Source: Psammoneis japonica (Eukaryota). Taken from it: DNA of 64,000 nt. Positions 5,600-64,000 of the stretch are shown here, one piece after another (positions within the stretch are counted from its first letter, which is position 1; every line of letters begins with the position of its first letter). The stretch covers positions 349,100-413,099 of the forward strand of contig QPGO01000055.1 of assembly GCA_008632985.1 (NCBI GenBank), given 5' to 3'. The notes beneath the pieces are model-generated. The model saw only the letters and a program-made list of their open reading frames with translations. It did not search any database and was not told the origin of the DNA. The translations under genes and the position numbers were made by a program.

Positions 5600-6640
5600 A
5601 ATCCATAAAACATGCAGGCGATCAGCACTGAAATGGTCCAACACCACACATCGATGACAAGCCTTGGGGGAGTGTCGTACCGTAATGAATATCCCAGCGT
5701 GGACCCAACCTGAAAGAAAAAGAGCAGTGTGGTGCGAAAACAGAAACCATGACATCAAAGTGTGCAACAACATCGCAAGCGCTGCGACCGTCATTGTCGT
5801 CCATTGACGTACGTGCGGAATGAATGACACGCCAATAAAGATTGCTGTGCTGCACTTTTGGTGTTTCCACTTCCATTGTTGTTCAAAGCGTGTTTCAAAC
5901 ATTTGTTTGAAACACGCCAATGTCAAAAGTTGACAGAGATCGGTCGCGCAGGACAACATTTGCCTGAAAAGCACCATCAGAAGATGGAGCTTAAGCTTCT
6001 GCGTGTCTTCAGGTGACGGGGATGGAGTGGGAAAAGTGTAGCTGGAAAACAACTTACGAGAACAGATGTCGCAAAATGACAAGGAAAGAAATGGTTCGGC
6101 CCCAGTGGCTCCTGGCAATGGCACATCCCATCGAAGTGCATCTTTGGTCAATTCTCTTTTCCTTTCCTTGTGCATCGTACGATGCATTGTTCACGTTCAT
6201 TGTCACAGCACGAAGTGCTTCCAAACATTGCTTGATTCGGCTGACAGTGCTTTTGATGACACGCCACTGTTGAGCTGCACTTGGCGTTGCAGAGGGAAAT
6301 GCCGAGGGTTCCGTTCAAGGGTTGGTCATCACGTCAGCTGGCCGAGTGGGAGGGGCAGTCAACGGGACTTTACTGGTTGGCAATGTCGGGACAGATGATG
6401 GACTGGAGAAACATGGACTCCAGCTCGGAGACACTCGTTCGATTTGCCCCGACCTCCGCGGACTTGACTGGCAACACCTGCGCCACCTGGAGACAACACG
6501 CCATCAAGCACAACGAGCTGTGGAATGCCATGCAAGAGCCAGCTCTCTGTTGTCCACAGGATTGGTGAGCCATCCTAGGCGATCGCGGCTTGGCAAACAA
6601 ACAGCACATCATGAGAGACGCGACGAGTTGTGATCGAAAA
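5600..6640. other. Partly TpA-depleted, CpG-retaining degenerate sequence (probable repeat or duplicated remnant)
   Basis: Few TpA and many TG/CA; ORFs are Cys/His-rich and Tyr-poor with no recognisable domain. Boundaries approximate. Confidence 0.45.
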
Positions 6641-7047
6641 ACGAGCGCGAAAGAAAAAGCTTTGGGAGATTTTGAGTCGTACTACATTAACATGACCGTT
6701 GCTAAATTTCTCGACGACTGTCATTTTTGTGTGTCTTCGTAAGATTAATGCGATGATTTCGTGTGTAGAACATTGGTGGAAACTCTCCGTTTTCAAAATC
6801 ATTGCCAATTCCTACGTGTGCAACGGCATCGAAATTCTAGTCATAGCTGGCTAAATGGACATCTAACATTTTAGTCATGAAACATCTCATTTAAGCCCAT
6901 TTAACATTTAGATTTTCAGGACAATGGGAAATGACTCTTGTGTGGCATTGTGACTCTACAATGTCCTTCCCACCGCAACAACAAAATGTTGCCAACTCTG
7001 CTGTCCTCACAATTTTCTCGACTCGGTGTTTTTGCTTCCCGAAAAAC

Positions 7048-7932
7048 ATGAAGCTCTCAAAGACCCCCCTCGTCTTTGCCTTCCTTGGATTGGCCGCCGT
7101 TGCGCAAGCCTCAGGTGTGTTGACTGCAATCGGCTGACACCTTCGCATGATTGAAAACCCAATTGTAAATTTTGCTCACTCTGGTTCTCACTGCATCGTG
7201 ATGACTGTAGACGCCATGTACGACCCTGACACCTCGACAGGTGCCGTTCTCATTGATGACGGCAGCGAAGAAAAAGGTCGTGGTCACGGAAAGCAGGATC
7301 GCCCCATCAAGGACAAGCCGACGACTCCGGCGAAGAAAATGCTGAGGACTGGCAAACCAGACGACCGGCCGGTGGAAAAGGAGGAACGCGAAAAGCCAGA
7401 CAACGAGCCTGCCATGACCAGAACTGGCTACACGGAGAAGGAGGAATGCGAAAAGCCAGACAACGAACCCACCATGACCAGGACTGGCCACACACCGAAG
7501 GAGGAACGCGAGTCAGAGCGTGAAAAGGACAAGGAGGATCGTGAGTCGGAGCGTGAAAAGGACATTGAAGAACGCGAAGAGGAACGCGAAAAGGAAATTG
7601 AGGAACGCGAGGCGGAACGCGAAAAGGAAATTGAAGAACGCGAGGCGGAACGCGAAAAGGAGAAGGAAGAGCGCGAGGCGGAGCGTGAAAAGGACATCGA
7701 GGAACGCGAGGCAGAACGTGAAAAGGATGTTGAAGAACGCGAGGCGGAGCGTGAAAAGGACAAGGAGGAACGCGAGACGGAGCGTGAAAAGGAGAAGGAA
7801 GAGCGCGAGGCGGAACGCGAAAAGGACATTGAGGAACGCGAGGCGGAACTCGAGAAGGAAAAGGAGGAACGCGAAAAGCCAGACAACGAGCCCGTCAAGA
7901 AACGCGCAAGGAAAAACAAGCCTGAACAATGA
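7048..7932 (+). CDS. Putative secreted, highly charged E/R/K repeat protein (about 262 aa)
   Basis: Exon 1 (7048-7114) encodes the signal-peptide-like MKLSKTPLVFAFLGLAAVAQAS. Intron 7115-7210 (GTGTGT..TGTAG) joins in frame to exon 2 (7211-7932), which carries EEREAEREK repeats. Confidence 0.6.
7381..7893 (+). repeat. Coding tandem repeats: two 60-bp units, then eleven 33-bp units, then a partial 60-bp unit
   Basis: EE(R/C)EKPDNEP(A/T)MTRTG(Y/H)T(E/P)K twice (7381-7500); EEREAEREK(E/D)(I/K/V)-type unit eleven times (7501-7863); EEREKPDNEP again at 7864. Confidence 0.9.
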
Positions 7933-8099
7933 TCTTCCGCGTGTGCTAGCGAAAGGATTGTTCGGAGTTTTGTTGCTGGATTCGTTGCGTCACTTTACAG
8001 TTTAGCTGCTGACAATGTGGCTGTAGCAACCCAAATGATGTCGTAGACATCTGGTTCTGTAGCCCATTGTTTCACCCTCAACATCAGCAAGACAGTCAT

Positions 8100-9720
8100 G
8101 TGTCATTGTGAACTGATGTAGCTTCGGTTCAGGTAGACCACATTTCATGCCGGCAGATGACAAAGACTGCAAGGGCACAATAAAAGCTTTGTGAAGGGCG
8201 AATTCCTCATGCCGCATGTGCATGGCACCACATGCTGGAAAAGCGGATTCCAGATTCCAGGAGGAGTTCGCGCATCAGCAGCGCAGTTTTTGTGTGCAAG
8301 AACAATGACGACGGCGACGAAGGACACGCTGTTCACTGTTGAACAGAAAGTCCTCCATGAATCATCATCCCGACACTTCTCTCCAAGAGCCTCTTCTTGT
8401 TGCTAACAACACCAACATGAAGAATCCTCAGCAAGAGAAGAGTGCCGGCAGCGCTGCTGACTGGAGTCAAGAGTGCGCGGATCGCGCGTCTGTCTGTGCT
8501 CCTGCTGATTGAAAGTTGAACAATTCAGAAGCAAAGAAGTGTCACTTGAAATGCGATGCCACCCGTAACTTGTTGCTGATTGCATCATGCGATGGACGCG
8601 TTCCAGCCCCAGGTGGGAGCTCGCAGCACTGATGTGTGACACAAACAATTTTTGTCATCCGTCGTATGTTTTGCACGTAGATTTCTACGAGTGACATTTA
8701 AAAAAAATTGTCCAGACTCGCTGTTTTGCTAAGCCCCAGACGTTTTATGTGATGAATTTATAGAAACAACAGCGCGCCAGTTGCATTTTTCAATGTCTGA
8801 AGAGTGCAGCTGGCTGAGCAAAAAATGATGTGCTTCAATCATGGGCGAGTTTGTGCGTTCGCAAAATTGCCTCATTTTCTGTTGGCGATCATTGACATTT
8901 TAATCACCGCATGATTTTACTGCGGAGCTCGCACACAGAAGTCTGTGGGCCCAATGTCACACGGATTCCCGCCTGCGTCTGGAACGCGTCGATGACAATG
9001 AGGAGGCATTGGATGCCATGGACGTGCTCGTGACATTGTTGGTCATGCGGAACTGGAATTGAGTTTCTCTGGAAATCATCATCAGGAAGAGGAAGAGCGA
9101 CCCGCTTCATCAGCACCCGAAGACGTGTCTGGAAGTGCCAACTTGCATGTTTGTGTCTGCCCCTGTCATGATCCATCACAAGAGAAATGGCTGTCACAGT
9201 GTGGAATTGCTGCTCATGAGCAGATTCGCACTCCACATGTTTAGAACTGTCACTTGCCAAGAAGTCGGTGGACAACAGGCAAACTGAAAATGTGACTGGA
9301 GCGACAGCAGCCAATTCACCACATGCATGTGGAAGATTGAACCAGTTTTCAAACTTTTGAATGCTGCTGCAATCGCGATGAACAGCATCTTGAAAAATCG
9401 CTTGGAAGTGAACCACTGGTCGATTTGGTTTCGAAGACAAAAAATTGAAAACGTTTCGCAAGCTGCCAGCTCTCAGCTTGGCAGCAGACAGTTCCGCAGC
9501 AAGTTCTTCTTCTTGTTGGTCGGCCCACTTTCGGACCCATTTGAGAAGCACATGGTTGGCAAGAAAGAGTGCATCTAGCGTGACGAGGACGCCAATGAAG
9601 GTGAGTGAGACCGCCATTTTTTCATGTGCGAATGCAGCCGCATTGGTGTTGCTCTTTTCCAACAGCAGGAGGTCGCCGACACAAGATGACAATCTCGCCA
9701 AAAAGTGACTGCGTGTGCGC
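8100..9720. other. TpA-depleted, CpG-retaining block containing a Tyr-free degenerate ORF (8904-9701, minus strand)
   Basis: By eye, 2 TpA in 8921-9720 against 9 TpA in the next 60 nt (9721-9780). CpG is still common. The 265-aa ORF has no Tyr. Confidence 0.6.
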
Positions 9721-15039: not shown

Positions 15040-15529
15040 AAGTAGTGTGTTGCGTCGTTGCATAATACGTAAGTAGTAGCTTGGATTGACTGAAGCTTTT
15101 CGAGAAGCTCGAGCCATGACATCAAGAGCGTTGATTTTAAATGGTGCTGTTTATGTTGGATGTAAGAGCCTCGAGGGTATCCTTTGAAGGTACAAGCCCT
15201 TGATATGCTGTAGCCCTAAATCTGTACCAGACAGCGGATGCCATCTTTCACAAGAAAGAGAAAGCTGCTTGCACGAAGTTTTGCTCTCCGGAGATTGAAT
15301 AAAACTCCTCTAGAGTATTTATCGATCAAGTGATTTGGCACGACGAGGCGTTGGCATCGTGGAAGCGAATTTACCAGCAAGAACAAGTTAGCATTTCCAA
15401 CTATGACGTAGAGAGGAATAGAGACCCAATTCTTGTTAGCATTCAAAACGACGTACACGCTTTAATTCAAGCTTATGGAATGCCGTATCGCTGTCTACAT
15501 TTCTAACTCTGTCGTAGTTGAAACGACTA

Positions 15530-18500
15530 GTTGGCACCATGCATGCTGAGCCATCCGATGACCCAACTGTGTCGCACCGGCGTGAAGGGTGCTGTCGAAT
15601 CCCGTTGCGGAAATTTCCAGTGTGGCAGCGAATGGCTCAGGTTGCACTTTTGATTTCTCTCCAGCAGAAGATGAGTTGGGCTGGGCTCATTGATTGGCAC
15701 TGTGCCATGGGTTGAAAGAGCCAATTTTTCTTCCTGAGATGGAACAAAAAAACTTGTGATTTCAAGCCATGTTCCTGACATGGCAAAACATGCTCTCAGG
15801 CACCAGAGACAATGGCAAAAATGTGAAAGATGCAGTTCATGAATGCCCAACAATTGCTGCACGTGTTGTGGCTCTGACACTTTAACAAATGTCAAACATT
15901 TGCATGTGTGAAGCCAGGGCAGCTTGATGCAATTTATGGAAAAAGAGACATGCAGACAAACGCAGACGGGTCTCATTTGAATCAGCCAGTGAAGGGAAAT
16001 CTGCTGCACCAACTCAGAACCAAACTTGCTTCTGCAATGGGGGATGACTCACTCATGACACACACTCATTGCTTGTGCCAGCAAATTCTGAGGGAGTTCT
16101 GAGTTGCACAAGTTCAGAGCAGCCACCATGCACCCGTGGCTGCACCAGCACCCTGGCAATCATCAAGGTCTCTGATGCGCCTCACACCAGAACTCCTTCA
16201 AGCAACAAGAAAGCCATTCCTTTGGTGACATCTTGACATGTCTTTGCTCTTCATCATAGAAATGGATGTCTGAGCTTGATGCAAAAGTTCTTCACACTGG
16301 CACGGAGTGCTCTTTTGCACCGTTTTGCAGCTCATCCTGGGAAAGGCAAGTGAGCGTCAATGTGGGAGCTGCGGCAAACCCTGCATCTGGATGGCTGTGG
16401 TCCTGCTGGCATGACAGTGGCCCCCATCTAGCTCTGTGCTTGCTCTGCAACACTGGCGAAGGCAGTTTTGTGAATTTTTTGATGATGCACTTCGATGTTG
16501 TTGAAAGCCAGTGTTTCTTGGTGAAACAAACAAGCAGGGCCACCTGGCTTGTTTGGCCCACATGGAAGCATTCAAACAACTGTGCCTGTGGCTTTGTTCA
16601 TGACAAGAGTTGCTCCTTTCCTTGCAAAAGAATCAATGCTGACTTTAAAGAACACTCTGAATCAGCGTGCCACAAGCCTTGACACCAGCCATTGACATGT
16701 TGTCAACATCTCTTTGTTGCACTCTCTTGTCACACAGCAAAGCTGCAGCCATGTCAACCTGTGCAACCACCTTCTTGCCATTGACTGCCTGTGATGTGCT
16801 TCAGGCCTGGGTGGGACTCCATGTGACATGTGACATGGGCCCACACAGTTCTGCACTCAAGCTTGGCAGCTCATGTGACTGCCATGCATTGAACTCATTT
16901 GTTGTCAACATCCAAATGCACTGCCAAGATTGTGCACTGTAGCTGTGCCTCTTTGCACTCACAATTTCTAGAAGCAAACAACATTTGAGAGGGGCTTTGT
17001 GTGAAAAAAAAATGACAAAAGTTGTTGAGTGTGTCACCCAACAATTGCGCTGCACAATCACACAAAACAGTGCCCAAGGCACCCAGAAATGCATGTGCAC
17101 AACATCTGGTGCATGTCAAAAAATGCCTGTGTTGCAGCCGCAGCAGTGCAAGGCCCCACCGACATTGGGTCTGCTGCTGATGCACCACTTTGCACACTGG
17201 CATTGTGGCAAATTCTGAAACAGCAGCAGGGGATCCCTCTGGCTTGGCACTTTGACATCTCTGGGTGCTTTCAGGGAGCATGCCACACAGCAAGAGTTGC
17301 CATTTTCATGCACAAGTGTCAGATTTCTGTGGAAAAAGTGATGGAAGAGGAAGGTTGCAAAAAGTCTGGCTTCAGCTTGCCAAAACAAATGCAGAAGTGA
17401 GAAAAGTGTTGTGCATTGTTTGCAGCAAGAATGAACCTACATCGCCGCAGCACCTGTGACAGCACAAGAGCATTTTGCTCATCCCAAGGACCTCTGCAGC
17501 ACTGCTGCTGCTTGTGTGGGAAAAAGTTGTGGCAACAACAGCCTTGGCAGTGCCCAGAGCACTGCTGGGTGGCAATGGCATTGCTGGCCCTTGCTTGCCA
17601 TCATTTGACAACAGCAAGAAGTTGAGGTTTTTGGAAACGCATCTTCCTGTTGCTTGTTTGCACAAAAGCCCTTGCTTGCAAGTGTGGTTTGCCATCTGGC
17701 ATTTAATTTGGCATGGCCACAAAAGATCAAAACAGCACAAACAGCACAAACAGCCCACACATCAACGTGCTGTCTGTCATCTTGTGTGACACAAAAATGA
17801 AGAAGAGTGGGAACCCAGTGCTGGGCCTGGGACACCACTGTGACAAACAAAGCCAGGATGACATCAGGCAGTCATTTTCCATCAGCACCACAACATTGCC
17901 AGGGGCTTTGAGGATGATGCAGACTTTTGTTCTGCAAGTGGGGCTGGCAATCATGATCTGTCAATGAATCAGAACAATCTCAAGCTGTGAAAAACAGGAC
18001 AAGCCAGCCTCTGCACCGCCAACTTGAAATCCAAATGATGGCAATTCATGCTTGAACATGCCCCCCCCCTTCTCTCAAAAAAATTTGCCACCCAATTAAT
18101 TCCCTTCTCTGGAGAGGAGAGAGCAGCTGAGTTTTTGAAAGTTTTGTGCTCCAGCCACCTGGTTTTGCTGCTGCCATTGTCCCCTTGGATGTCAAAGAAG
18201 GACAAAAGCTCAACCTGCATTTGTCAAGCAAGAAGCACTGGCAACAGAGAAAATGGAGGAGAAAACAACATGGGCCAAGCTTTTGTGGGTTTGTGCTGAT
18301 GTTGCAAAAGGACCACCAGTTGTTTTTGCCAGATTGCAAGGTTGTGCTTGCAGATGATGGCCCACATCAGCTGGGTGCAGCCACTTTGCTTGAGCTGAGT
18401 GGATTTTGTGGGTGGTGTGTTTTCCTTGTGGGCTTGCAGGGACTCAACCAACATGAGTGCTTTTTTTGGCTTTTGTTTTCCAGACAATGAAAAAGGAGCA

Positions 18501-20535
18501 AGTGGGTGTTTGGAAACCAAAGCCACATTGGTGGCAAGCTTGTTGTGAGCTTTGCCGCAGTTGGGGCTCTGTTGTCTCACAACACCATGAGCTCATCTTG
18601 TTTGTCAGTTGCATGCTCTCCTTTGCTTGTGTTGGTTTGCAAAGAAAGTGCGTCTGGAAAGGCATGTCAGTGTGGCTTGGAGATCACTGTCCAATGAACA
18701 ACTCCACTCCAGCAAGCTCAAGGGGCATTCTTTGTCAGACAACACACAGCGCTGCACCCCCTCCTTGCTGCATCAGATGCACTCCAGCTCTGGGTGGGAC
18801 CTCATGCTGTGACGTTGGCATTTTTTTAGATGCACTCCACGTCACTCGTGCTCATTTCTGCATGACTTTGGTGGCATTTTGTGCCCTTGCTCTGTGGTGC
18901 AATCACTGGGCTGTTCTCCATTCAACAAATCTTGGCACCATTTTGTGCAGGTGAGACAGATTTTTAAAAGCTGTGAGTGCCAACAAAAACTGCAGCTGTG
19001 CTGCAAAGTTGGCCCCTCACTCAGGTGTTGAGAACAACTCACTTTTTGACCAGTGTGTCAAAACAATGCAGAGCTCACACGTGGATTTCTGTGAGCGCCA
19101 ATGTCACAAACAGCTCAGTTGAGGGCATGGAACATGCCACAATTGGCAAGGCCCTCAAAACACATTGCTCAAGGAAGCTCTGGTTGTTGCAAAGTGTGGG
19201 GGTCACTCCACATTGAGGTGCTTTGTGAGCAGAGCTGCCAGCATCTGAGCTGACAACATTGCTCTCCTCAAAATCATGAGAGTTGTTGTGAGCAATGACA
19301 AACCTTGAGCACCAAGTGCCTTTCACAACCACAGCCATCTAGAAGCCCAATTTCTTTGACTCTGCCGCAACTCAAACTTTGCTCTTGTGTCTCTGTCAGC
19401 AGGCAGTCTGAGGGCTTGCTCACCTTGACAAAGAGTTTGAAGTTGTCAACTCTTTTTTCCAATGCAAAAAAGACACAGGGTTGCCTCCAAACTCCTGAAA
19501 AAGGGCCACATGAGAGAAAAACTTTGAGCTCATCTCCAAGTGCACACAAAAGTGCCCTCTTGAGCATGCAAATCTTGTTTGTTGTGCAGCCAACATTGTG
19601 ACGTTCTAGCATGAGCTATAATTTGGCAATCAGGGGCAAGCTCTGTTTTCATGGGTTCTTCATCACAGCTGTCAACAAACTGCTCCAATGTCCCAGTGGT
19701 CAATGAGCTTTTTTTTCAAGTGCCAGTCAGAGAGTTGAGTGCTGCAACCAAGATTTTTGTTTGTCATCAAGACATGTGACAACACAACAACTTGATCTCA
19801 AGTCCAGGATGAGAGTGGGAAGAGATCAGTTGTTCTTTCATGTGTGCACCACTTGACAAGTTTTCCATGCCAAGTGGCTTGCAAAAGGAGAGTTGTTTTC
19901 CAACCTCAATGGAGAAATGCACAATGAACAAAACCCTTTGCATTTGCTTTTCCTCTCAAAATTGTTCAACTCATGCAAGGCCGCCATCATGGGCATGACA
20001 TGGCCAACATTTTGTGGTGCATCATCCAATCCTTGAAATGCACTCCAATGACTTGCAAGTCCCAAGTGATTGCTGGTCTGCCTGAGTTGCTGCCAGCATT
20101 GATTGCAGCATTTTGGCTTGAATTGCTGGCATGCACACCAAGGCTTGTGAGCATTTTTGTGTTTCAATGTAACTTGTCACACACTTGGCATGACACTCAC
20201 AGCAAATCACCACCTGTGGGACACCCCAGAACTCCACATTGTCTTGCAGCAGAGCCAGCAAAGGACCAAATTCAAGTGGCTCCAGGTTGTTTTGGAAGAA
20301 GAAAATCCTCATGTTCTGCACATGACAAGGCCAAATTGCACCAGTTGTTGCAAGCAGTTTTTGCAACAGCTTGAAATTCCAGTTTGTCACCACCACACTG
20401 GACTTGCTCTGTGCTGGCATGCTTGACCATGTGGGCATGAGCCGTGGTTGTCCCATGCAGATCTGTGTCGACTTGAGGAGCTCCACCACGATGTTCGTCT
20501 GTCGCTGTTGTCGCATGGCAAGCATTCAATCTCCA
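15530..20535. mobile_element. Old hypermutated repeat or TE-derived block (TpA- and CpG-depleted); family not identifiable
   Basis: By eye, 2 TpA and 4 CpG in 17401-18000 against about 26 TpA in host coding 1381-1980. Dense spurious Cys/His-rich ORFs. TE origin is inferred only by analogy with the Harbinger element at the window end. Confidence 0.55.
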
Positions 20536-21622
20536 TATAATTAACAATCAAAAACACTAGGCCCCTAGGAAGTACAGAAAGAAGATTCGCATCAATTATG
20601 GCGTGACTGACGATAACCTCATGCTCTCTTGTTGGCAAAAAGAGTCTTAAGTACCGTCTTGCTTCCTCGATAGGTTGTTTTCTGCAAAGGGTGTCTCGCA
20701 AGTAAGAACTCGTCGTATGGGCTTTGAGATTGGTAGAAAAAGCTTGAGCATTAAGTGATCGATCCCTGCATTTTGACTTGTATCGAACAGCTAGAGGGTG
20801 TATCGAAGTTAACAGTATGCCGCGAGAATCATATTTCTTGTGCATCTCAACGCTGCGTATCTTAGGACATCAGTGTGGCGTTCAGCAACTGCTTTTGAAG
20901 CATGAGGCTGGGTGGATCACGACGAATTTTTCACTTTTGTTACGAGCGAGTGTAAGCGTTGAATGATAACGATGCATTCTTGTTAGGCGAAGCTGCTACG
21001 ACAGCGTCTTTACCCTCTCTATCACGCTCAGAGTCTGGTTATCAGAAAGTTGGGCCGTTGTGGCGACGTAGGGTGTAGTAAGCCGGGATGGTTGCTCGAC
21101 GACAAGTCATCGACTACCAACCGGATAACACTTCCACAGCGCCTGTGCCACAAGCCCAACGATCCACACTCCCCTACCTTCTGTACCGTAGCGAGATCCA
21201 TGTTGAGCAAAATACGGCCTGAATGGTTTAACCTTGTGCCTGACTGCAAGAGACCCATGCTCTACTAAGTACCCATATCATTCCTTGGTTACAAAGGTCA
21301 AGCCCCCCTAGAGATCTCTCAGCGATACCCATCAACCGTTCGCCACATTGTCTTGATCTCTCGTGCGAGCAGGCTCCCATCAAACTGTCGTACATGATAC
21401 TGTTTGAAGAAGTGGGTCGCGTGGTTCCAGCAATGTGACGTACTATGAAGCATTGTACTGCTAGCGCAAAAGACTTTGCCGCAAGTCTCTTCTATGTAAG
21501 CCAAGCTCCGTTTCTGTCAAGCTTGTGTCTTTCCTCAACCATCGCAGTGCGTTCTAAGCCGAGCGATGGGCACATGAATTGTTTCGAGGCGATCTCAAAC
21601 TGAGTAAAGATAAGGGATCAAG

Positions 21623-22195
21623 CTAGTTCCATATCGTGTAGTCAAGGACAGCGAGAGGCAATCCACGATCAAAATCTTGGTTCCATTTCGTTGGTATGCG
21701 GGCAACCAACTGCTCCGGTCCGAATTCAACTTGTTGTTCTTCCTGAACGCAAAACTCGAGATTGGAATCCTCGTCTTTCCCCTCTCTTTTGGAGAGTGCC
21801 ACTGCTCGAATCACGTCGTGCTCACAATTATGAGTCCACACGATTTGTATATTTTCTACCCGAGCAAAGCGAAAGGCTGCTGGTGATCCATCTCCAACCT
21901 CAACCCCATCAACGGTCCAGGTCCCCGTTTGATAGACGACAACATCACCCTCTTCAAGACAAGCAGATAGGTGCATGTCGCCACGACCAAACAGACTTTC
22001 GTCTGACTGTAACTCAACGCTTGGCTCCTGATTGTCATATTGTAAAGAAGACAGAACTCGTACTGATGATGGGATGACCTGTCGATCTACTGGGTTCACA
22101 GGTACCGCAGAAAATGCTGACGAACTTTGAACGATAAGTGGCAAGCAGCAGAGGAGCGATAAAACAGGCAGCTGAAGTAAGATTGAAGGTGACAT
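21623..22195 (-). CDS. Hypothetical protein (about 190 aa), probably plastid-targeted
   Basis: Start MSPSILLQLPVLSLLCCLPLIVQSSSAFSAVP resembles a signal peptide plus an ASAFAP-like motif. Globular region LFGRGDMHLSACLEEGDVVVYQTGTW; normal TpA content. Confidence 0.7.
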   Translation of the reverse strand: MSPSILLQLPVLSLLCCLPLIVQSSSAFSAVPVNPVDRQVIPSSVRVLSSLQYDNQEPSVELQSDESLFGRGDMHLSACLEEGDVVVYQTGTWTVDGVEVGDGSPAAFRFARVENIQIVWTHNCEHDVIRAVALSKREGKDEDSNLEFCVQEEQQVEFGPEQLVARIPTKWNQDFDRGLPLAVLDYTIWN

Positions 22196-22439
22196 GATGC
22201 GGATAAGAGTACCTGTAACGGTATCGACAAGCGACAACGTGCACGGCATGCGAAGCCCCTGCGAAAGCCGAGCGCCATGCGCCATCGCCAGCTATGATGT
22301 GTGATGTGGCACAGGACGCGTGCGCTGTGGGGGGTGCGCGCCCTGTGATGAACGTCTCGAGAAAATGGGGGACATGCGCACTGCCACAGTAAGAAACTGT
22401 TCCACGACGATAAATTCCTGTCAAGTCTACTGCTTCTCC

Positions 22440-25400
22440 CCCCCCCCCCCTGTTCTCTCCACTGGCTTGCCACCTTTGTCGTCGGACGCCCACATGTTCT
22501 TGAGTTCCTCCAGAGCTTGCTTGAAATCCATTTTGGTGGGGTTCAAATCCACTCCTCTCAATTGTCTCGGATCTTCATGGCTCATTGCACACAGCAAGAC
22601 ATGGATGAAAGATGGCTTGCATCTGGGTTCCAGACAGAGACAAGGTGGTCCTGTGGTGCATGCAGAATGGTCTGAAACACTTCAAAGTGAGTGTGTTGGG
22701 TGGAACAGGGATTCAAGAAGCAACAGATGTGTTGGTGGAGCTTGCTCTAGAATCAGATGAGCCATGATGAGAGCAAGAACAAGATCAAGCGGGGCAGCAG
22801 AGCTGCTGCGCTCTCCACCACAATGGCGTTGATGGCCGAGCTTGTCACCAACTTCAAACCAGCCCACATCATCCAAAGCCATTTGTTTTTCCAAGTCTGG
22901 CTGAGACATTGGGAGCGCAAGTTGACATCTGTGCCAAAAGGTCATGGGCATGCAATGGATCAAGAGCATGCTGAGCATCTGCAAAGGTGGCTGTTCTTCT
23001 TCAACAACATTGTTGCGCACCTTGTTCAACATGCAATTGACCATTGGTGCATCGGGAAGCAAGACGTGATGATGCAATCTGCAGAGGCTTTTGCACATGC
23101 AATGATTTAAAAAATTCAGAAACTCGCACGCAGCTTGGTCCTCTCCCCACTCTCCAAGACACACATCTTTGACTGCTTGGCAAGAACAGCCTTCTTCCAA
23201 GCTGCGGCACACCTCAACATCCCACAACAAAATGCATCACAACAAACCAACAAGCGTGCTGATGCCATGTGCCCAGTCCCTTCTGTGGACTCAACTGGCT
23301 GTGCAGTTGCTGTGACCAGCCCTGAGAGCTCACAACTGCAAGCATGCCTGGCACATCATTGTGGATTGTGTCTCCATGTGCATGTCACCACAAGAGAAAA
23401 ATGGTGGCCACTCCATTTCCAGTCATTTTCAAATCACTGGTTGCACCCATTGTTGTGATTGTCCCTTGGCGATGATGATTTCTCCTTTGCTGGGCTGAAG
23501 GCACTCTTCTTGCCAGTGTGCTTGCAGGGCGCAATCATGACCATGTCATTTTTGTCATGTGATTTTGACACAGATTTTCTTGCATGGACAGATCAGTGCA
23601 AAAAGAAGGAGAAGCTGCACAGCGACAAGCAAGATCATCAGCTCTCAAGTCATTGTGCCTGCAGCAACAGTGCTCTTGGTGGCAGCAGTGGTCATGGCAG
23701 CATTGGAGCAGGTTTCAACAGCACTGGAGTGGGGTGGCAATGATCATGGCAGAGGTGATGGTGGTGGTCATGGGAGTGATGGCAGCATTGTTCAAGGCAG
23801 CGAGGCAGCAGTGGTTGCAGGAGAGGGCAGAGGCAGTCTTGGGAGCAGGTGGTGGTGGTCATGGCTGGTGGCACCAGTTGTGACAGTGGCTGCACCAGGG
23901 GAAACAGCATTGGTGGCTGTGATGGTGCTGTTCATGCTGGGGTTGTTGAAAAGTGGTGGTGGCCGCAGAGGAAGTTTCAGCACCAGAGTTGGTGGTGTCA
24001 GGCAGAGGCAGTGGTTGTGGTGATGGTGGCAGCACTGCTCTGGGGGGGGGGCAGCAGAGTGCTCAGGTGGTGGTCGCAGCTTCAACATTGCCAGAGCAGG
24101 TGACAGAGGTGAGGGCAAAGCTTTGAATGGCTGGCCCAGTGCTGGTGGAAGTGTGGCTGTGGCACTTGTGCTGTCAGGAGAGGCCAAGCTTGGAGAGGCT
24201 GAAGTGGCAGCATGTGCAAGGCTGCCCAAGGTGCCAACATGGGATGTGGTGTTGGCAGTTGATCTGGCAGCCAAGATGATGGCATGGCAGTGTGGCACAG
24301 TTTGTGCAGGGGCTGAAAGCAGCTGCATCATTGGTGGTGGCAGGTGGCGCTGTTCATGCTGGGGCTGATGATGAGTGCAGAGTCAGCAGCAGAGGTGGCG
24401 CTGGCGGTTGCAGCAAACCTGGCAGCAGCTTGTGTGTGAAGAGTTGGTGGCAGGGGCTTTTGACAACAATCTGTCAGCCAGTTGGAAATGAGCTGCAAGA
24501 AACAATGACTGAAAAATTTCTGTCTCCAGGCATCTCCAAGCTGTTGTGATGAATGCAAGACAACAAGGCCACCTTCCTGCCATTGTTGCTGGGAAGCAAG
24601 CGCAGAGTTGTGCAAAAGCTGGATGTGGCCATTCCACCAACGGATGGAGAGAAATCTCCATTTGAGAGCTGCACACAAACCACTGCCAATGGTTGTTCCT
24701 CCCTCTAGACAAGAGAGAGGAGTGCTGCAATTTTGAGAATTTTGCTTTGGTCCAACCCATCTTTTGAGCCTCTCACTCATTCCTCAAACCATGGTCAGGT
24801 CAATGGGGCTGACTCTTGTTCAAAGCAAGTGGGTTCATGATGAGTGACAGTGGAACATTCAAGAAACTGCCAATCTTGCTGACTCATGAATGTCTGGCAC
24901 CACACAACATGCTTTCAACCACAATTTTTGTTTTGAAATGTGGGCATCTTTCAACATCTGTGATGACCAAATGGCACCCAGCAACAGCAGAAGCTTTGGT
25001 GCTTCAATGTGGAAGAGCAGGTCCCATGTGTTTTCCAAAGCCATGCAGTGGATGCCATCAGCCTGACTTGTCTCCAACACCCGATTGACCCCCCGCTGAA
25101 CTCATTCCAAGGATGGCCTTCCTTTGTCAAAGCAGCCCAAATGATCCTTCATGTTTTGGGGTCATTCTTTGGCTCTGGATTTGATTGGTTTGGGAAATGT
25201 CATGCCCACAAGAGCCGTGACTTCCATTTCAGAACAGTCCTGGCAGCTGCACAATCACCCCCGTTGCAACCGCATCGTCAATGTTTTTGTGCAGTTGCTC
25301 TGCATGCATCTTGCATCTGTTTGGATTTGACAGACACCAAACATGTGATTGTGCACTGTTGCTGGCAATCTGAATGACTTCATAAATTGAAATGTGACTT

Positions 25401-27010
25401 CTGGCATTGCCTCCAACCATGAGCACCATGTCAACATTTCTGCCACATCCTGTGTTTTTTCTCTTGCAGAATTTCATGATTGTTGCACAGACCCACTGCA
25501 ATTGTTTGAGTTCAATTTGGCGTCCTGGTGTGCCTGCATGGCAGCATCAAAGAACTTCTTCCCCAAGCCGGGCGCAGTTGCTGACGGCAATTCAGGTGAG
25601 CAGACATTTTGGCACATTGCTCAGCTTGGAATGAACCTTGGCCACCAAAGGACTCCATTCCATGGTGCTGCGGTGGAGATTGTTTGCCAGCAAAATGGCT
25701 GCAGTTCTTCAAAGGGTGCAAGCCTTGCATGAATGCCTGCGTGTCACAGAAAAATCATTGGAGGATGCTGTGTGCAAAGGAAAAACTGCAAACATGGTGG
25801 TTGAAAGCATCAATCATGACGGATGCGGCAGATGACAAGCGCGGTGTGTGTGGTTGACTCCAAATAAAAAAAAGATGCTGGAGCTCAGAGCTCAAAGATT
25901 TTTTTTGGTTGCAGATGCCAGCACAGGTGCTGTGCCAGTGGATGACCACAGCGCAGGTCCTCACCTTTTCCATTTGAGCACTGATTGCTTCACCAGGACC
26001 ATGGGCTAGCTGTCTTTTACAACTGAGTGCAGCTGTCAAATCATCTTTGTAAACAAATCTCCATTTTGTCAATCACTTGTGTTTGATCAACTCTGGATTC
26101 ATTTAACAAGTGCCAAATTGAAGACTGAACTCACCACATTTTGCACATGGCTGCAGCACAGACACAGCAGATCTGTGGGTGCTCTTCTGTTTTTCTTCTG
26201 TTGGGGTCACAACTTGTTGCAAAGTCAATGAACAAATTTGGTGTCAATGGTGACAAAGAACAAAGCAAAGAGACTTGATGAAACACAAAAAAGCAGGGCT
26301 CTTGTGTGAGGCTGTTTGGTGCAAAACCTCAAAAAGGAAGCGTTGTTGACTGACTCACACAGTGACAGAAAACCTTGATGCCAGCCCTGCAAGCCACTCT
26401 GAACAGATCCTCTGTTGGTGAAAATGCAATCAATGGAAACTCTTGTCTTGCTGTCTGGGATGCAACATGATTGAGCAAGGCCTCCATGTCATCTTCATCA
26501 TCAGCATTGCTCTGATTTGTTCCTTGCTGTGGGGTTTACAAATGTGCAACACACCTGCAGCTGCTCCTTTTCTGAGTTGTTTTTTACAAATGCTCTCATG
26601 CCACATCTGCACAGGCAACAATCTTCCAATTTGAGCACAGCTCCCACTGCTCATTTTCATGTCATGGTGGTGTTCATCCTCAAGCATCAAGTTCGGCTGC
26701 TCATCTTGCTGTTCTCTTGTGGCGAAGATGTGCTGACATTGTTGCTCACTCTCTAGAGTTCACGGTGTTCCCTGCAATGACAAAGGCTTCCTGCTTGACT
26801 TGCAATGTCAAGGCTTTCCCAGATTCCACTGCAATGGCCTGTCCCGAGGAAAAGCTTGCATTTTTTGCTGTGGCTGGGATGCAACCACAGAGGAAAAGAT
26901 TTTCCCAAATCGTCGTCTGTTTTAATCCCTGGCTGCAGATGTTGCGGTGGACCTCCAGTCGAGTGCAAATAATTTGAACGTGGAGGATGCTCCACATCAC
27001 GCCCCCCTTT
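22440..27010. mobile_element. Old hypermutated repeat or TE-derived block (TpA- and CpG-depleted); family not identifiable
   Basis: No TpA found by eye between 23110 and 24705 (about 1.6 kb). CpG is rare and TG/CA is in excess. Confidence 0.55.
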
Positions 27011-60942: not shown

Positions 60943-62077
60943 CTAATGTTCTAAACTGCTGGTGTTTCTAATGACAGCCGCCACACTTGTCCTTGTTGCT
61001 GCTGTGAAAACCAAAACAATGTAAAATGAAAAGAAACGCCGCGCACCCTGCTTCGCCACACAAGCAGTGCCGTCAATCAACATAACCTTGGGGCTCTCCA
61101 TAGAGCGGTATGTTGAGTCCTCAGCTTTGAGGTCAACACATGCAATTCTTGAACCATCCTTGCCCCCCAAAAGATGAACCTTGTTGATCTTTTTCGACAC
61201 TTTGATGGGCAAAGGAACAGTGGCTGTTGACGCCAAGACATCGCTGTCCGACAACCTCATGGAGGACAACTGATCCGAAAGTGCCTCTGGGCGCTTGTGC
61301 ACATCCCTGAGCTCTTGGTCTCCTTGGGATTGTGCCTCCTCCACCAGCACAGCATGGAGTGAGTCCATGTCCATGCTGTGACCCGGCCACTCGGAGGTGC
61401 ACTGTAAAAACCAACCGCCACCCGTCACCGCGAGCTTGAAGCTAGAAAGGTCCTCAGTGCATGCTCCTGAGGGAGCTACAATCACCAGCACCACATGGTC
61501 TGTCTTGTTGACAGAATCCTTGCAGGTCGCCTGCAAAACCATGGGCTTGAATGTCTGGTCGTCCTCAAATGCTGGGGGGTCCAAAGCAGTGGGGGCGACA
61601 GCTGCAAAACTGCCGGTTTCCTTGGCTGACGGCAGGCCGACGTCGGCTAAGAGCTCGTCCTCGTCCATGTCGAGGTCTTCCCCTTTTGAAACAAGTGGAC
61701 AACAGTCAAGAGAAAAAAAGAGCAACATGAGAGTGCATTCTGTTTCATTTGACAAAGTGCAGCATGTGGCGACACTTGCTTCCGCCAGTGCCATCATCTG
61801 CCGGTGGCGCAGCACTGTCATCAGCGCTTCGTTGTCACAGGTTGAAACCAGTTTCTTTCCTCAGCTTGCACAGCTGAGTGCAAAATTTGGCAAGAGGACA
61901 CTTCAAAAACTCTGCACGCATGGACTGAACCTCCTTTGGTGACGCTCCAGGATTGATCCTTTTTTGCAACAGGAGATCCCTGAGCAGCATCCAGTCGGGC
62001 GAGTTTTTTCGAAAGGCGGGAGGCGGCTTCAAGTCAGTGCCAAACACTGACTTGCTCCTTGTGTTCATTGTCACCAT
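60943..62077 (-). pseudogene. Accessory ORF of the Harbinger-like element (disrupted)
   Basis: Exon 1 (62077-61780) has a premature TGA at 61837-61835. An intron at 61779-61683 with a GCAAGT donor joins in frame to EDLDMDEDELL.... Tyr is absent through the core. Confidence 0.55.
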
Positions 62078-62358
62078 CGTGTGTGTGTTGGTCACTGTTC
62101 TCAATTTTATGACGAGGCAAGCTGCAAATCCTCTGAATGCGTGTTGCTCACTCGGCACACTACGGCAAGGTTCGCATCGAATCCCGAACTCCGATTTGAA
62201 TTGTTCACGACCGTCTCAACTCTCTCTTTATGTGGGACAGTCAATCCCACACATGCAAGTCCCGGCAAATTTGAAATTGCCACAACCGCCAAAACCAAAA
62301 AAAGGCCCATCGGGGGGGGCTGTTGTGAAGTGTTGGAGCTCAAGATTCCCTTGCACAC

Positions 62359-62838
62359 CGTTCCAAAAGCGTTCCAAAAGCGTTCCAAAACCGTTCCGAG
62401 AACGTTCTCGATTGCACCAATTCGCGCGGAAATCAAACTTTGGAGCCTCTTAATCTGGCAATGAGACACATGATGCATTGCAGTTGGTGCACTGTTGTTA
62501 GAACCATTTGAGCATGGCACAATGGTGTAAAAGTTTAACAGATTAGATGGATTTATTGCAAAAAGGTGCACCCGTCAAAACAGGTCACCATTTTCTCTAA
62601 GAAAAAGAACGGCTGTTAGAAGTCTCAATGATTTTGATTTACAGTGGCTGTGAGTTGAACTGCAAAGTGTTGTTGTAACTGCTGGCATTGTTTGACACTA
62701 AACCACATCTACAACAACCGCCAATGGCTCCAACACGGAAATGCCATTCGACGAAATGGGCATTTCATCATTCCCGTGTTTCCACCGTTCCGGGACCGCA
62801 CCAAAAGCGTTCCGAAACCGCACCAAAAGCGTTCCCGA
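62359..62838. repeat. Two clusters of 11-bp CGTTCCAAAAG-type repeats in the transposon spacer
   Basis: 62359-62410 has three to four units ending in the palindrome CGAGAACGTTCTCG; 62785-62838 has CGCACCAAAAGCGTTCC twice. Confidence 0.8.
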
Positions 62839-63032
62839 AGGGAATCTCTCTAAAAGGCCTGACATCAGAGCATTGTTTTTAGACGTTGGAAACGAATGAG
62901 AACCCCACCCGACCATCAATCCACCTGTGATGCGGCAACAAAAACACTGCTGCACGGAACTGGCGCCGCAGCAATCTTGTCAGCATGTGACATGAAACAT
63001 CATGCGCGCAACACACGTCTGTGTTGCTCACC

Positions 63033-64000
63033 ATGCAAATGCGCCTGCCCAAAGCCACAGCAGATTATCTTGCGGGGACAGTCATCCAGAGGCCGATGAG
63101 GTCACAACGGATTTGGAACCGCAGATTTGCCTCGTGCTTCTGCTCTCCGCGAGACGCAGTGTGTGAGTTGTGGGGCCTTCTTGAAGATGATGGCAACATC
63201 CCACGCGGATTTCTGCCCACTCATTTGTTGCACACATTTTGTTTTCTGAAACTGCATGACACTGAAACCACAATGGCCAGAATCTGCGGTGGCACACACG
63301 AGGATACGTTGAGAAAATGGGTGTGGGTTGGGATGGCGCTAATTGCGAATTTGAACTTGGTGCGTGCCATGACTCCAATTTCTCTTTGAAAATCAATGCA
63401 CTGACATTTGATTCACCATAATTTCATCACAGATTGATTGGGAGAACAGGTTTGTGGATGACAATGGCAGTGCATGCAAGGTGACGGTGGACGGCACTGA
63501 CTTTCGCATCAACGAACCATCGCCGTTCGATCCCATCTGGCATTCGCATGAATTCAACGGCGCAGGGCTCAGGTGCGAAATCGCCACATGCATTCAGACA
63601 GGTTGGACAGTTTGGGTGAATGGCCCCCACCCAGCTGGCATTCCTGATTTGAGCATGGCACGAGAGGCGATCAATTGTGAACTTCAAGATGGAGAGTTTT
63701 GCTCAGCTGATGGGGCATGCAGTGACGGACACCAGTGTTGTGTGGCCCCGACCGGCCTGCGCAATGCCGACCAACACATGAAGACCGTCGCTCGCGCCCG
63801 CCACGAAGCTGTCAACGGTTGGTTCAAGCGCTTCCAAATGATGACAAGAACGTGTCGTCATGATCGATTGACGCATCACCTTGCCTTCCAAGCAGTGGCG
63901 AACATCACACAGCTTTCCATTGTGATGGGACACACACCCTTTGAAGTGGAATGCTCAGATGAACAGGAACCCATTGAGAAATTAGGACATTTTGCAACAT
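63033..64000 (+). pseudogene. Harbinger/ISL2EU-type DDE transposase, hypermutated at TpA
   Basis: Exon 63033-63359, intron 63360-63432, exon 63433 to beyond 64000. Motifs HLL..FLKL.DTE, TLRKWVW, VTVDGTDF (D1), ADG (D2), RARHEAVN (E), AVANITQL. Confidence 0.85.

What the first reader, a model, noticed from the sequence alone, without database searches (positions are those of the whole stretch)
5600..64000. Candidate new genome-defence mutator: repeat-targeted erasure of TpA (TA to TG/CA), a reverse-direction RIP
Seen: six sharply bounded blocks, roughly 24 kb in total, nearly lack TpA. Hand counts give 0 in 23110-24705, 2 in 17401-18000, 1 in 63421-64000 and 2 in 8921-9720, against about 26 in 600 nt of host coding sequence (1381-1980). 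TG/CA are in excess, and host genes between the blocks are normal. Known: fungal RIP (CpA to TpA) creates TpA; 5mC deamination removes CpG, not TpA; APOBECs act on C; TadA- and ADAR-type deaminases convert A to I (read as G) and favour a 5' T/U. Inference: an A-to-G process acts on TpA on both strands of repeat DNA, such as a DNA adenine deaminase or modification-coupled error-prone repair. It would destroy Tyr codons, TAA/TAG stops, GTA splice donors, TATA boxes and TA/TAA target sites. I know of no published description, but I could not search the literature.
Basis: partly seen in the sequence, partly recalled or inferred. Interest (0 to 1): 0.95.

Follow-up and report, generated by a model that had tools for sequence, protein, structure and literature searches.

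The report
TpA- and CpG-erased DNA blocks in a diatom
Several sharply bounded stretches between ordinary diatom genes have had nearly every TA, and in four of six cases also nearly every CG, turned into TG or CA, the footprint of a locally aimed mutation process that so far has been described only once, in a 2026 preprint on an unrelated alga.

Summary
Four strong blocks lie at 15529-20536, 22429-26900, 28721-34300 and 35928-37100. Together they hold 53 TpA where 705 are expected. Two weaker blocks (5600-9576 and 61110-64000) have lost TpA only.

Pyrimidine-purine steps number 241.7 per kb in the blocks and 241.2 per kb in background. The TA and CG lost (-85 per kb) equal the TG and CA gained (+86 per kb). 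The blocks are therefore background-like DNA changed by transitions, not DNA of foreign composition.

TpA loss depends on context, in the order T-A-T > T-A-C > T-A-G > T-A-A. It is symmetric between strands, unclustered, and has edges sharp to about 20 bp. CpG loss is nested 60-250 bp inside those edges.

An independent re-assembly of the reads reproduces the blocks and their junctions at flank depth. A diverged paralogue carries TA or CG where the block has TG or CA.

The host is a diatom-like alga, not Bigelowiella natans, where TpA-to-TpG/CpA hypermutation was reported in 2026. I judge this a new member of a very recently described kind. The enzyme, the targeting rule and the origin of the blocks remain unknown.

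The parts
15529..20536 (.). Strong block A: TpA- and CpG-erased DNA (5.0 kb)
   Evidence: TA-free runs and sharp edges (last TA at 15528, next dense TA from 20536). TA observed/expected is about 0.03 and CG 0.04-0.25. X1 contigs cover 15201-18882 and 18856-20148 with 3 and 0 differences. Pfam found nothing in ORFs or in a six-frame read-through of 15500-20000. A fossil purine/pyrimidine period-3 patch lies in the 900-nt window starting at 18601 (power 6.2).
22429..26900 (.). Strong block B: TpA- and CpG-erased DNA (4.5 kb); holds the 1598-nt TA-free run 23109-24706
   Evidence: X1 contigs cover 21737-24821 and 24800-28554 with 0 and 1 differences and cross both edges. A paralogue 80-85% alike over 24946-25149 and 25543-25673 carries TA or CG where the block has TG or CA. 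There was no real Pfam hit.
28721..34300 (.). Strong block C: TpA- and CpG-erased DNA (5.6 kb). TA is already sparse from 28487. The right edge is gradual (33.8-34.5 kb).
   Evidence: The X1 contig 28529-31634 shows 0 differences. The part 31.2-33.9 kb has many paralogous contigs (summed depth 215-1500 against about 68). Pfam found nothing in 31000-34400 or in ORFs. Purine/pyrimidine period-3 power reaches 7.7 in the window starting at 29701.
35928..37100 (.). Strong block D: TpA- and CpG-erased DNA (1.2 kb)
   Evidence: A short direct similarity links 36917-37095 to 29125-29325 in block C (82% over 82 nt, 71% over 107 nt).
5600..9576 (.). Weak block W1: TpA depleted (observed/expected 0.22), CpG kept (0.95). 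Patchy, with normal stretches at about 6600-7000, 8000-8200 and 8600-8800.
   Evidence: The context ranking of TA loss is the same as in the strong blocks. No Pfam hit. The stretch 7374-7874 is a 33/66-nt tandem repeat.
61110..64000 (.). Weak block W2: TpA depleted (observed/expected 0.15), CpG mildly low (0.73). Runs off the window end.
20537..22428 (.). Normal-composition segment N1 between blocks A and B
   Evidence: TA and CG are at background density. An X2 contig covers 20997-22284 with 0 differences. No Pfam hit in its ORFs.
27412..28569 (-). Conserved diatom gene (385-aa ORF, no Pfam family) in the normal segment N2 between blocks B and C
   Evidence: 46 homologues were found. All named ones at 44-63% identity are diatoms (Triceratium, Nitzschia inconspicua, Cyclotella cryptica, Stephanocyclus). 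Purine/pyrimidine period-3 power is 6.8.
34606..35436 (+). ORF (276 aa) in the normal segment N3 between blocks C and D
   Evidence: Normal TA and CG. Period-3 power 5.9. No Pfam hit and no atlas hit.

Best explanation
Two context-specific transition processes have worn down the blocks where they sit in the chromosome of a diatom-like alga. The blocks are discrete, non-coding or degenerate DNA lying between conserved host genes.

Process 1 turns TpA into TpG or CpA. This is an A-to-G change on either strand, with a preference for a pyrimidine 3' of the A (T-A-Y). It acts site by site, equally on both strands. It stops within about 20 bp at the block edges. It can run without process 2, as in W1 and W2.

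Process 2 is the ordinary decay of CpG to TpG/CpA, as expected from 5-methylcytosine deamination in silenced DNA. It occupies the interior of the four most eroded blocks.

Process 1 is the same kind of event as the TpA hypermutation measured in Bigelowiella natans in 2026. I infer, but have not shown, that it is enzymatic adenine deamination in DNA by a TadA/ADAT-type deaminase. I also infer that this enzyme is aimed at silenced or foreign DNA by a sequence-level guide rather than by spreading chromatin, and that it serves genome defence.
For: Shown:
1. Mass balance. Pyrimidine-purine steps number 241.2 per kb in background, 241.7 in the strong blocks and 241.2 in W1. TA falls by 40 and CG by 45 per kb, while CA rises by 43 and TG by 43.
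2. Simulation. Converting 92.4% of TA and 81.8% of CG in background DNA gives CA 114.4 and TG 113.2 per kb. The observed values are 114.5 and 113.9. The RMS misfit over 16 dinucleotides falls from 22.9 to 7.4.
3. Context. In the strong blocks 0 R-TA-Y sites remain where about 238 are expected, while TTAA keeps 57%. The fitted per-strand loss by the base 3' of the A is T 2.46 > C 2.21 > G 1.04 > A 0.35 in the strong blocks. The ranking is the same in the weak blocks (1.73 > 0.83 > 0.33 > 0.07).
4. Strand symmetry. TG and CA labels are equal in number and unclustered (runs-test z from -1.0 to +1.7).
5. Edges. TA edges are sharp to about 20 bp. The CpG-poor domain starts 60-250 bp further in. W1 and W2 have lost TA but not CG.
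6. Read support. X1 contigs reproduce the blocks and cross the edges at flank depth.
7. Paralogue. Among the 35 differences to paralogues listed in block B (40 of 496 places were shown), the paralogue has TA at 8 sites and CG at 4 sites where the block has TG or CA. Two adjacent double changes (CA against TG) also occur.
8. Host. The flanking segment holds a conserved diatom gene.

From the literature: TpA to TpG/CpA hypermutation at about 6e-7 per site per generation was measured in integrated viral DNA of B. natans.
Against: - No ongoing TpA mutation is seen here. The 5 full-depth differences between the window and the X1 reads are all CpG to TpG/CpA, and none is at TpA.
- The share of paralogue transitions that fall on the block's TG/CA (16 of 28) is not clearly above the roughly 46% expected by chance. 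Only 40 of 496 variant places were visible, so the copy-against-copy test is thin.
- For the multi-copy part of block C I could not see whether the other copies are equally TA-poor. A family that was already eroded before it spread is not excluded there.
- The very sharp edges would also fit erosion before insertion.
- Non-YR dinucleotides deviate from the simulation (GC +18, AT -12, GA and TC about -10 per kb). The source DNA was therefore not exactly like the mostly coding background.
- No viral or transposon protein domain was found in any block, so 'foreign DNA' is an assumption.
- No genome was available to look for a deaminase.
- X1 may be the window's own source, so the read support is not an independent sample.
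Confidence: 0.72

Rival explanations
1. The erosion happened before the DNA arrived at this locus. On this view the blocks are copies of element families, or foreign DNA, that were already free of TA and CG when they inserted. They could have been hypermutated elsewhere or while episomal, or belong to non-autonomous elements that keep spreading after erosion. The sharp edges would then simply be insertion junctions.
For: TA edges are sharp to about 20 bp with no gradient into the flanks. Part of block C is multi-copy. No coding capacity is left.
Against: - The purine/pyrimidine skeleton and the mass balance match this host's own DNA exactly.
- A paralogue of block B keeps TA and CG.
- CA-against-TG double differences between copies indicate hits after the copies diverged.
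- The CpG-poor domain is nested inside the TA-poor domain, which points to a position-dependent process in place.
- W1 and W2 are patchy intermediates.
- In B. natans the mutation was measured in integrated DNA.
- No terminal repeats are present.
Confidence: 0.12
2. The T of TpA (equivalently R-T-A) would be the modified base, for example oxidised by a TET/JBP-type enzyme. Alternatively the A would be methylated, and error-prone repair or mispairing would turn the site into CpA or TpG.
For: Sequence alone cannot tell A-to-G on one strand from T-to-C on the other. The T-A-Y preference is equally an R-T-A preference. From memory, not from any call: some protists replace T by 5-hydroxymethyluracil, preferentially at TpA.
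Against: From general knowledge: 5hmU:A pairs and 6mA:T pairs are not strongly mutagenic, whereas inosine pairs with C at every replication. That fits a clean transition-only outcome with an intact purine/pyrimidine skeleton. The natural substrate of TadA/ADAT is A34 preceded by the invariant U33, which gives a ready reason for TpA specificity.
Confidence: 0.15
3. Selection rather than mutation. On this view the blocks avoid TA and CG because a nuclease, a restriction-like system or RNA decay acts on those steps.
For: Joint CpG and UpA avoidance is known from RNA viruses (PMC3829696, seen only in the listing and abstract). A phage island with TpA loss and CA/TG gain was judged a maintained bias in an earlier finding of this scan (e1-5320246).
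Against: - An observed/expected ratio of 0.03-0.05 over 16 kb is far beyond known avoidance.
- The blocks have no long ORFs, no Pfam domains and mostly no coding periodicity, so there is little for selection to keep.
- The exact mass balance fits conversion, not replacement.
Confidence: 0.03
4. A sequencing or assembly artefact, such as systematic miscalls at modified bases or a chimeric join.
For: All three runs come from one sample, which may be the source of the window. The platform is not on record.
Against: Logan's independent contigs of X1 carry the blocks with 0-3 differences at mean word depth 60-70, the same as the flanks, and bridge five of the block edges. A miscall at a palindromic step would give conflicting calls from the two strands, not a clean TG or CA.
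Confidence: 0.02

Closest known systems
TpA to TpG/CpA hypermutation of integrated NCLDV and virophage DNA in Bigelowiella natans (Mettrop et al., bioRxiv 10.64898/2026.01.13.699255; abstract, Results and Discussion read, supplements closed)
   Same: Transitions occur only at TpA, giving TpG or CpA according to strand. [quoted passage not shown] The long-term footprint is TpA depletion with CpA+TpG enrichment; the preprint reports 124 such clusters of 1-kb windows, most with unannotated genes. The proposed cause is DNA adenine deamination used as defence.
   Different: - The host here is diatom-like (Stramenopiles), not a chlorarachniophyte (Rhizaria).
- Erosion here is near saturation: TA observed/expected is 0.05, against Rho 0.45 for their NCLDV region.
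- The blocks here are 1-6 kb and show no detectable viral or transposon domains.
- CpG is co-depleted here. The preprint's main text never mentions CpG (0 occurrences).
- The preprint's text gives no context beyond the dinucleotide, whereas a T-A-Y preference is seen here.
- No direct rate measurement exists here.
Fungal repeat-induced point mutation (RIP)
   Same: Both irreversibly mutate selected DNA segments by dinucleotide-specific transitions. Both leave sharply distinct compositional blocks next to normal genes.
   Different: The direction is opposite: RIP turns CpA into TpA and creates TpA. RIP hits both copies of a duplication, whereas here a paralogue keeps TA and CG and the blocks stand at single-copy depth. 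The 65-66% identical inverted gene pair in the window is untouched.
Methylation-driven CpG decay (5-methylcytosine deamination) in silenced repeats
   Same: CpG is lost and TpG/CpA gained in blocks A-D. The T-C-G context is the most affected and G-C-G the least.
   Different: It cannot remove TpA. W1 and W2 lose TpA without losing CpG. The CpG-poor domain is nested inside the TpA-poor one.
ADAR-type A-to-I hyperediting of double-stranded RNA and its retro-copied products
   Same: An A-to-G outcome with a preference for a 5' U/T.
   Different: Editing of an RNA that is then copied back would mark one strand in clusters. Here TG and CA are equal and unclustered. From memory: ADAR is confined to animals and prefers a 3' G, not a pyrimidine.

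Membership tests
B. natans-type TpA hypermutation (2026 preprint) | TpA lost, with a matching gain of TpG and CpA on both strands | tested here: met
   TA falls by 40 per kb while CA and TG each rise by 43 per kb (this includes the CpG contribution). In W1, where CpG is intact, the pyrimidine-purine total is unchanged at 241.2 per kb. TG and CA are equal in number.
B. natans-type TpA hypermutation (2026 preprint) | Confined to discrete regions while neighbouring DNA is ordinary | tested here: met
   Edges are sharp to about 20 bp. Genes between the blocks and in 37-61 kb have TA observed/expected of 0.4-1.0.
B. natans-type TpA hypermutation (2026 preprint) | Directly measured excess of new A-to-G/T-to-C mutations at TpA | tested here: inconclusive
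   Only one sample is available. The 5 fixed differences between the window and the X1 contigs are all at CpG, and none is at TpA.
B. natans-type TpA hypermutation (2026 preprint) | Targets are integrated viral or other foreign DNA | tested here: inconclusive
   No viral or transposon Pfam domain was found in 97 ORFs or in six-frame read-throughs of A (15500-20000), B, C (31000-34400) and W1. Parts have paralogues. Heavy erosion could hide any homology.
B. natans-type TpA hypermutation (2026 preprint) | An ADAT2/TadA-like deaminase candidate in the genome | not testable with these tools
   No genome is held for this window. No deaminase domain appeared among the window proteins scanned.
Fungal RIP | C-to-T at CpA, creating TpA and depleting CpA/TpG | tested here: not met
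   The opposite is seen: TpA observed/expected is 0.05 and CpA/TpG 1.8-1.9.
Fungal RIP | All copies of a duplicated sequence are mutated | tested here: not met
   A paralogue of block B carries TA at 8 and CG at 4 of the listed variant sites. Only 40 of 496 places were visible.
5mC-deamination CpG decay | CpG depleted with a gain in TpG/CpA | tested here: met
   Blocks A-D hold 162 CpG against 894 expected. This accounts for only about half of the TG/CA gain.
5mC-deamination CpG decay | Cytosine methylation present on the region | not testable with these tools
   No methylation data are available.
ADAR-type RNA hyperediting followed by retro-copying | Strand-coordinated clusters of A-to-G | tested here: not met
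   Runs tests on TG/CA labels give z from -1.0 to +1.7, and the skew variance is at or near the binomial value.

The most novel reading that the evidence does not exclude
Diatoms, like the rhizarian alga B. natans, would carry a natural, guide-directed DNA adenine base editor. This would be a TadA/ADAT-derived deaminase with a T-A-Y preference. A sequence-level guide (small RNA or homology) rather than spreading chromatin would bring it to particular DNA segments, which would explain edges sharp to about 20 bp. It would act independently of cytosine methylation and erase TpA until the segment is informationally dead. That would make it an ancient defence shared across the SAR supergroup. A still bolder variant is that the same enzyme also deaminates C at CpG. 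The preprint's account of dual A/C activity of amphioxus and trypanosome ADAT2 makes this conceivable. However, the TA-only blocks and the offset edges argue against it.
Probability: 0.25. Interest if true: 0.9.

Novelty: new member of a known kind. Interest (0 to 1): 0.68.

Why it matters
A mutator that erases TpA from chosen DNA segments was first reported in early 2026, in one chlorarachniophyte. Its enzyme and its targeting rule are unknown.

This window adds four things:
- It shows the end state of the same process in a diatom-like alga, a different branch of the SAR supergroup. The mechanism may therefore be old and widespread in marine algae.
- It separates the process from CpG decay, through the TA-only blocks and the nested CpG domain.
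- It gives an extended target preference (T-A-Y) that any candidate enzyme can be tested against.
- It shows targeting precise to about 20 bp, which constrains how targets are recognised.

From general knowledge, some diatoms can be genetically transformed and edited, so the enzyme and any guide could be found by knockouts. A natural enzyme that deaminates adenine in double-stranded DNA would also interest base-editing technology. For annotation, such blocks yield long spurious ORFs rich in Cys, His and Trp and lacking Tyr, and they hide the transposon or viral origin of the DNA.

Tried and rejected
- Whole genome: none is held. Genome-wide profiles, family consensus alignments and a deaminase search could not be done.
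- Earlier findings of this scan: none for this genome or sequence.
- Repeat structure: blastn self-comparison, purine/pyrimidine-space exact matches (k=30), terminal direct or inverted repeats at block ends, and blastn/tblastx among the normal segments all found nothing beyond a weak 29125-29325 / 36917-37095 match.
- Origin of the blocks, Pfam: nothing credible in 97 ORFs of at least 90 aa or in six-frame stop-read-through scans of B, C 31-34.4 kb, W1 and A 15.5-20 kb. The one hit (Myticin-prepro, E 0.0047, below cut-off) is a cysteine-richness artefact. Block C 28.7-31 kb, block D and W2 were not scanned in read-through mode.
- Origin of the blocks, sequence search: the fossil-frame ORF 18457-18954 gave one hit in 1.84 billion representatives. 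It is a tandem-repeat protein matched in 8 short stretches, which I reject as uninformative.
- Protein atlas: the 385-aa ORF scored at most 0.85 (hypothetical giant-virus clusters), below the tool's lead threshold, and the later diatom homologues contradict it. The 276-aa ORF gave no usable hit.
- Relatives in metagenomes: a scan with the 385-aa ORF confirmed none. The second scan was not used, because the known relatives sit on short contigs.
- Rfam: no match in the window.
- Expression: no RNA holder was listed. X2's contigs at 99% or more cover only the normal segments (15201-15450, 20997-22284, 27358-28464, 34506-35200) and none lies in a block.
- Enrichment test on paralogue differences: 16 of 28 listed transitions fall on block TG/CA against about 46% expected. 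This is not significant, so I do not count it as support.
- Literature: five searches found only the B. natans preprint for TpA-directed hypermutation in a cellular genome, and nothing for diatoms. The preprint's supplementary tables, which include the mutation list that could give its flanking context, are closed.

Full report
**1. The observation**

The window is 64 kb with 47.7% G+C. It comes from a eukaryote with long, apparently intron-free genes.

A 500-nt sliding profile and a list of TA-free gaps show six blocks in which TpA is nearly absent.

I define four strong blocks:
- A, 15529-20536
- B, 22429-26900
- C, 28721-34300
- D, 35928-37100

Together they span 16,233 nt. There are also two weaker, patchy blocks: W1 (5600-9576) and W2 (61110-64000, which runs off the window).

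The strong blocks hold 53 TpA where 705 are expected at the rate of the rest of the window. TpA observed/expected is 0.05 against 0.62. CpA is 1.88 and TpG 1.78, against 1.14 and 1.15.

W1 and W2 keep their CpG (0.95 and 0.73).

**2. The blocks are real**

No genome is held for this window. One sample with three coded runs holds the stretch.

Logan's independent contigs of run X1 reproduce the region 15201-35032 in eight pieces with 0-3 differences each. Their depth is 60-70, the same inside and outside the blocks. The pieces bridge five of the block edges (15529, 22429, 26900, 28721 and 34300).

X1 may be the window's own source. It does not show that a second sample has them.

**3. Mutation, not composition**

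Transitions keep purines as purines and pyrimidines as pyrimidines. The number of pyrimidine-purine steps per kb is 241.2 in background, 241.7 in the strong blocks and 241.2 in W1. TA falls by 40 and CG by 45 per kb, while CA rises by 43 and TG by 43.

I simulated conversion of 92.4% of TA and 81.8% of CG in background DNA, each to TG or CA at random. The result is CA 114.4 and TG 113.2 per kb, against 114.5 and 113.9 observed. The RMS misfit over the 16 dinucleotides falls from 22.9 to 7.4.

The remaining misfit is GC +18, AT -12, and GA and TC about -10 per kb. It shows that the source DNA was not quite like the mostly coding background.

Laying contigs at 80% identity or more brought in 504 contigs, so parts of the blocks have paralogues. 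The part 31.2-33.9 kb stands out, with summed depth of 215-1500. Only 40 of 496 variant places were printed.

Thirty-five of the printed places lie in block B, against paralogous contigs 80-85% alike. In these:
- the paralogue has TA at 8 places and CG at 4 places where the block has TG or CA;
- two adjacent double differences occur (CA against TG, and TG against CA).

So at least one paralogue is not eroded, and some sites were resolved differently after the copies split.

One caution applies. Sixteen of 28 listed transitions fall on TG/CA, against about 46% expected by chance. That is not a significant enrichment.

**4. Anatomy of the two processes**

*Context.* Residual TpA is strongly context-dependent. 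In the strong blocks 0 R-TA-Y sites remain where about 238 are expected. TTAA keeps 57% and CTAG 26%.

An additive per-strand fit gives loss exponents by the base 3' of the A:

| Set | T | C | G | A |
|---|---|---|---|---|
| Strong blocks | 2.46 | 2.21 | 1.04 | 0.35 |
| Weak blocks | 1.73 | 0.83 | 0.33 | 0.07 |

The order is the same in both sets. The target is therefore T-A-Y, or equivalently R-T-A on the other strand.

CpG loss ranks T-C-G (1.40) > A-C-G (1.00) > C-C-G (0.76) > G-C-G (0.36).

*Strands.* TG and CA are equal in number and randomly interspersed (runs-test z from -1.0 to +1.7). The hits were therefore independent, single-site and on either strand. They were not a processive sweep along one strand of an RNA or single-stranded intermediate.

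*Edges.* TpA density switches from about one per 10-20 nt to none within about 20 nt at 15528, 20536, 22428 and 35927. Normal CpG density continues 60-250 nt into the TA-free zone at the six edges where this can be read: both edges of A and D and the left edges of B and C.

Taken together with the TA-only blocks W1 and W2, this separates a TpA process from a CpG process. The CpG process is nested inside the most eroded blocks.

**5. What the blocks are**

They are not copies of one another. Blastn, purine/pyrimidine-space matching and terminal-repeat tests found nothing.

They have no long ORFs beyond what the absence of TAA and TAG stops explains.

No credible Pfam domain was found in 97 ORFs or in six-frame read-throughs of A (15500-20000), B, C (31000-34400) and W1.

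The purine/pyrimidine skeleton is blind to transitions. It shows coding-type period-3 power of 6-23 in the known genes. In the blocks the power is mostly below 2.5, with three patches in the 900-nt windows starting at 18601 (6.2), 23401 (6.7) and 29701 (7.7). These may be fossil coding segments. The 23.4 kb patch is a Gly/Ser/Ala-rich low-complexity stretch.

An ORF in the fossil frame (18457-18954) found nothing useful among 1.84 billion representatives.

The segments between the blocks have normal composition. One holds a 385-aa gene whose 46 homologues include Triceratium, Nitzschia, Cyclotella and Stephanocyclus at 44-63% identity.

The named relatives of the SET-domain gene are also diatoms. 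The named relatives of CobW are haptophyte, pelagophyte and diatom, at 53% identity or less.

The host is therefore a diatom-like ochrophyte. The blocks sit between conserved host genes in a genome that elsewhere has short intergenic spacers (37-61 kb of the window). The blocks are most simply old insertions, but this is inferred.

**6. Comparison with what is known**

Five literature searches found one relevant report: bioRxiv 10.64898/2026.01.13.699255. I read its abstract, Results and Discussion and ran a term search. Its supplements are closed.

In mutation-accumulation lines of Bigelowiella natans, 231 of 302 new single-nucleotide mutations fell in an integrated NCLDV and a virophage. The rate there was about 6e-7 per site per generation. 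Nearly all were A-to-G or T-to-C, and all of these were at TpA.

The authors also found 124 clusters of TpA-depleted, CpA+TpG-enriched 1-kb windows. They proposed an ADAT2-like DNA adenine deaminase used for defence.

Their main text never mentions CpG, flanking context or other species.

The window is not from B. natans:
- the best CobW relatives are 59% identical and unnamed;
- no B. natans protein stands among the best 120 hits;
- the conserved neighbours are diatom genes.

Fungal RIP runs in the opposite direction and hits all copies. CpG decay explains only the CpG half. ADAR-type editing of an RNA intermediate is contradicted by the strand symmetry.

**7. Mechanism**

*Shown:* two context-specific transition processes have acted on discrete segments that lie between intact genes.

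*Inferred for process 1:*
- It is enzymatic deamination of adenine in double-stranded DNA. Inosine pairs with C, which gives clean transitions.
- From general knowledge, TadA/ADAT enzymes act on A34, which follows the invariant U33. That gives a rationale for TpA specificity. The T-A-C of the bacterial TadA substrate fits the preference for a 3' pyrimidine.
- Targeting is at sequence level. A process tied to spreading chromatin should blur over a nucleosome or more, whereas the edges here are sharp to about 20 nt.

*Inferred for process 2:* it is 5mC deamination in the methylated interior of silenced DNA.

*Open questions:*
- the enzyme;
- whether the A or the T is the chemical target;
- what marks a segment;
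- whether the erosion of the multi-copy part of block C came before its spread;
- whether the process is still active. The five fixed differences between the window and the X1 reads are all CpG to TpG/CpA and none is at TpA.

**8. Verdict**

However, its 'repeat-targeted' and 'undescribed' claims do not hold as stated, and it missed the CpG loss.

I rate this a new member of a kind first described in 2026. It has added value in four ways: a second, distant lineage; a saturated end state; the T-A-Y context; and the separation of TpA loss from CpG decay.

Noticed in passing
window 16356, 17161, 18814, 20804, 20947: The only five full-depth differences between the window and the X1 read contigs over 15201-35200 are all CpG in the window against CpA or TpG in the reads. 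Three lie among the few CpG left in block A. Two lie in the normal segment just right of it. This may reflect fast ongoing CpG decay, alleles, or a difference between the data behind the assembly and this run.
   Followed up: partly
window block edges: 15528-15629, 20443-20536, 22428-22568, 28486-28737, 35927-35988, 36870-37084: The CpG-poor domain begins 60-250 nt inside the TpA-poor domain at the six edges where it can be read, as if methylation-linked decay spares a rim of each eroded block.
   Followed up: partly
window 1307-5227 (+) and 41399-47604 (-): These are two diverged, inverted paralogues of a DUF1800+DUF1501 gene, 65-66% identical at nucleotide level over about 3 kb. The first is one 1306-aa ORF. 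The second is split into two overlapping ORFs (41399-43057 and 42943-47604), by a frameshift or a short intron. Neither shows TpA or CpG erosion.
   Followed up: no
window 7374-7874, in ORF 7138-7932 (+): A tandem array with a 33/66-nt period (11.4 copies, 82% matches) plus a 60-nt repeat just upstream. It encodes an EEREAEREKE-type charged repeat and has CpG observed/expected of 1.86. It sits inside weak block W1, and its low TA count may be compositional.
   Followed up: partly
window, 900-nt windows starting at 18601, 23401 and 29701: Period-3 signal in the purine/pyrimidine skeleton (power 6.2, 6.7 and 7.7, against mostly below 2.5 elsewhere in the blocks) suggests fossil coding segments that survive transition erosion. 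ORF 18457-18954 is in the frame the signal predicts, but it has no informative homologue.
   Followed up: partly
window 29125-29325 and 36917-37095: A short direct similarity (82% over 82 nt, 71% over 107 nt) between the start of block C and the end of block D. It could be the remains of terminal repeats of a larger element spanning C, the normal segment N3 and D, or it could be chance.
   Followed up: no
window 50534-50627: A 20-nt tandem repeat (4.6 copies, 93% matches) in the spacer after the CobW-like gene.
   Followed up: no
window 21793 / 34948: One X1 contig (depth about 170) joins a 45-nt match ending at 21793 to sequence from 34948 on, with 33 other letters between. A short repeat is therefore shared by the normal segments N1 and N3 and by another locus.
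   Followed up: no
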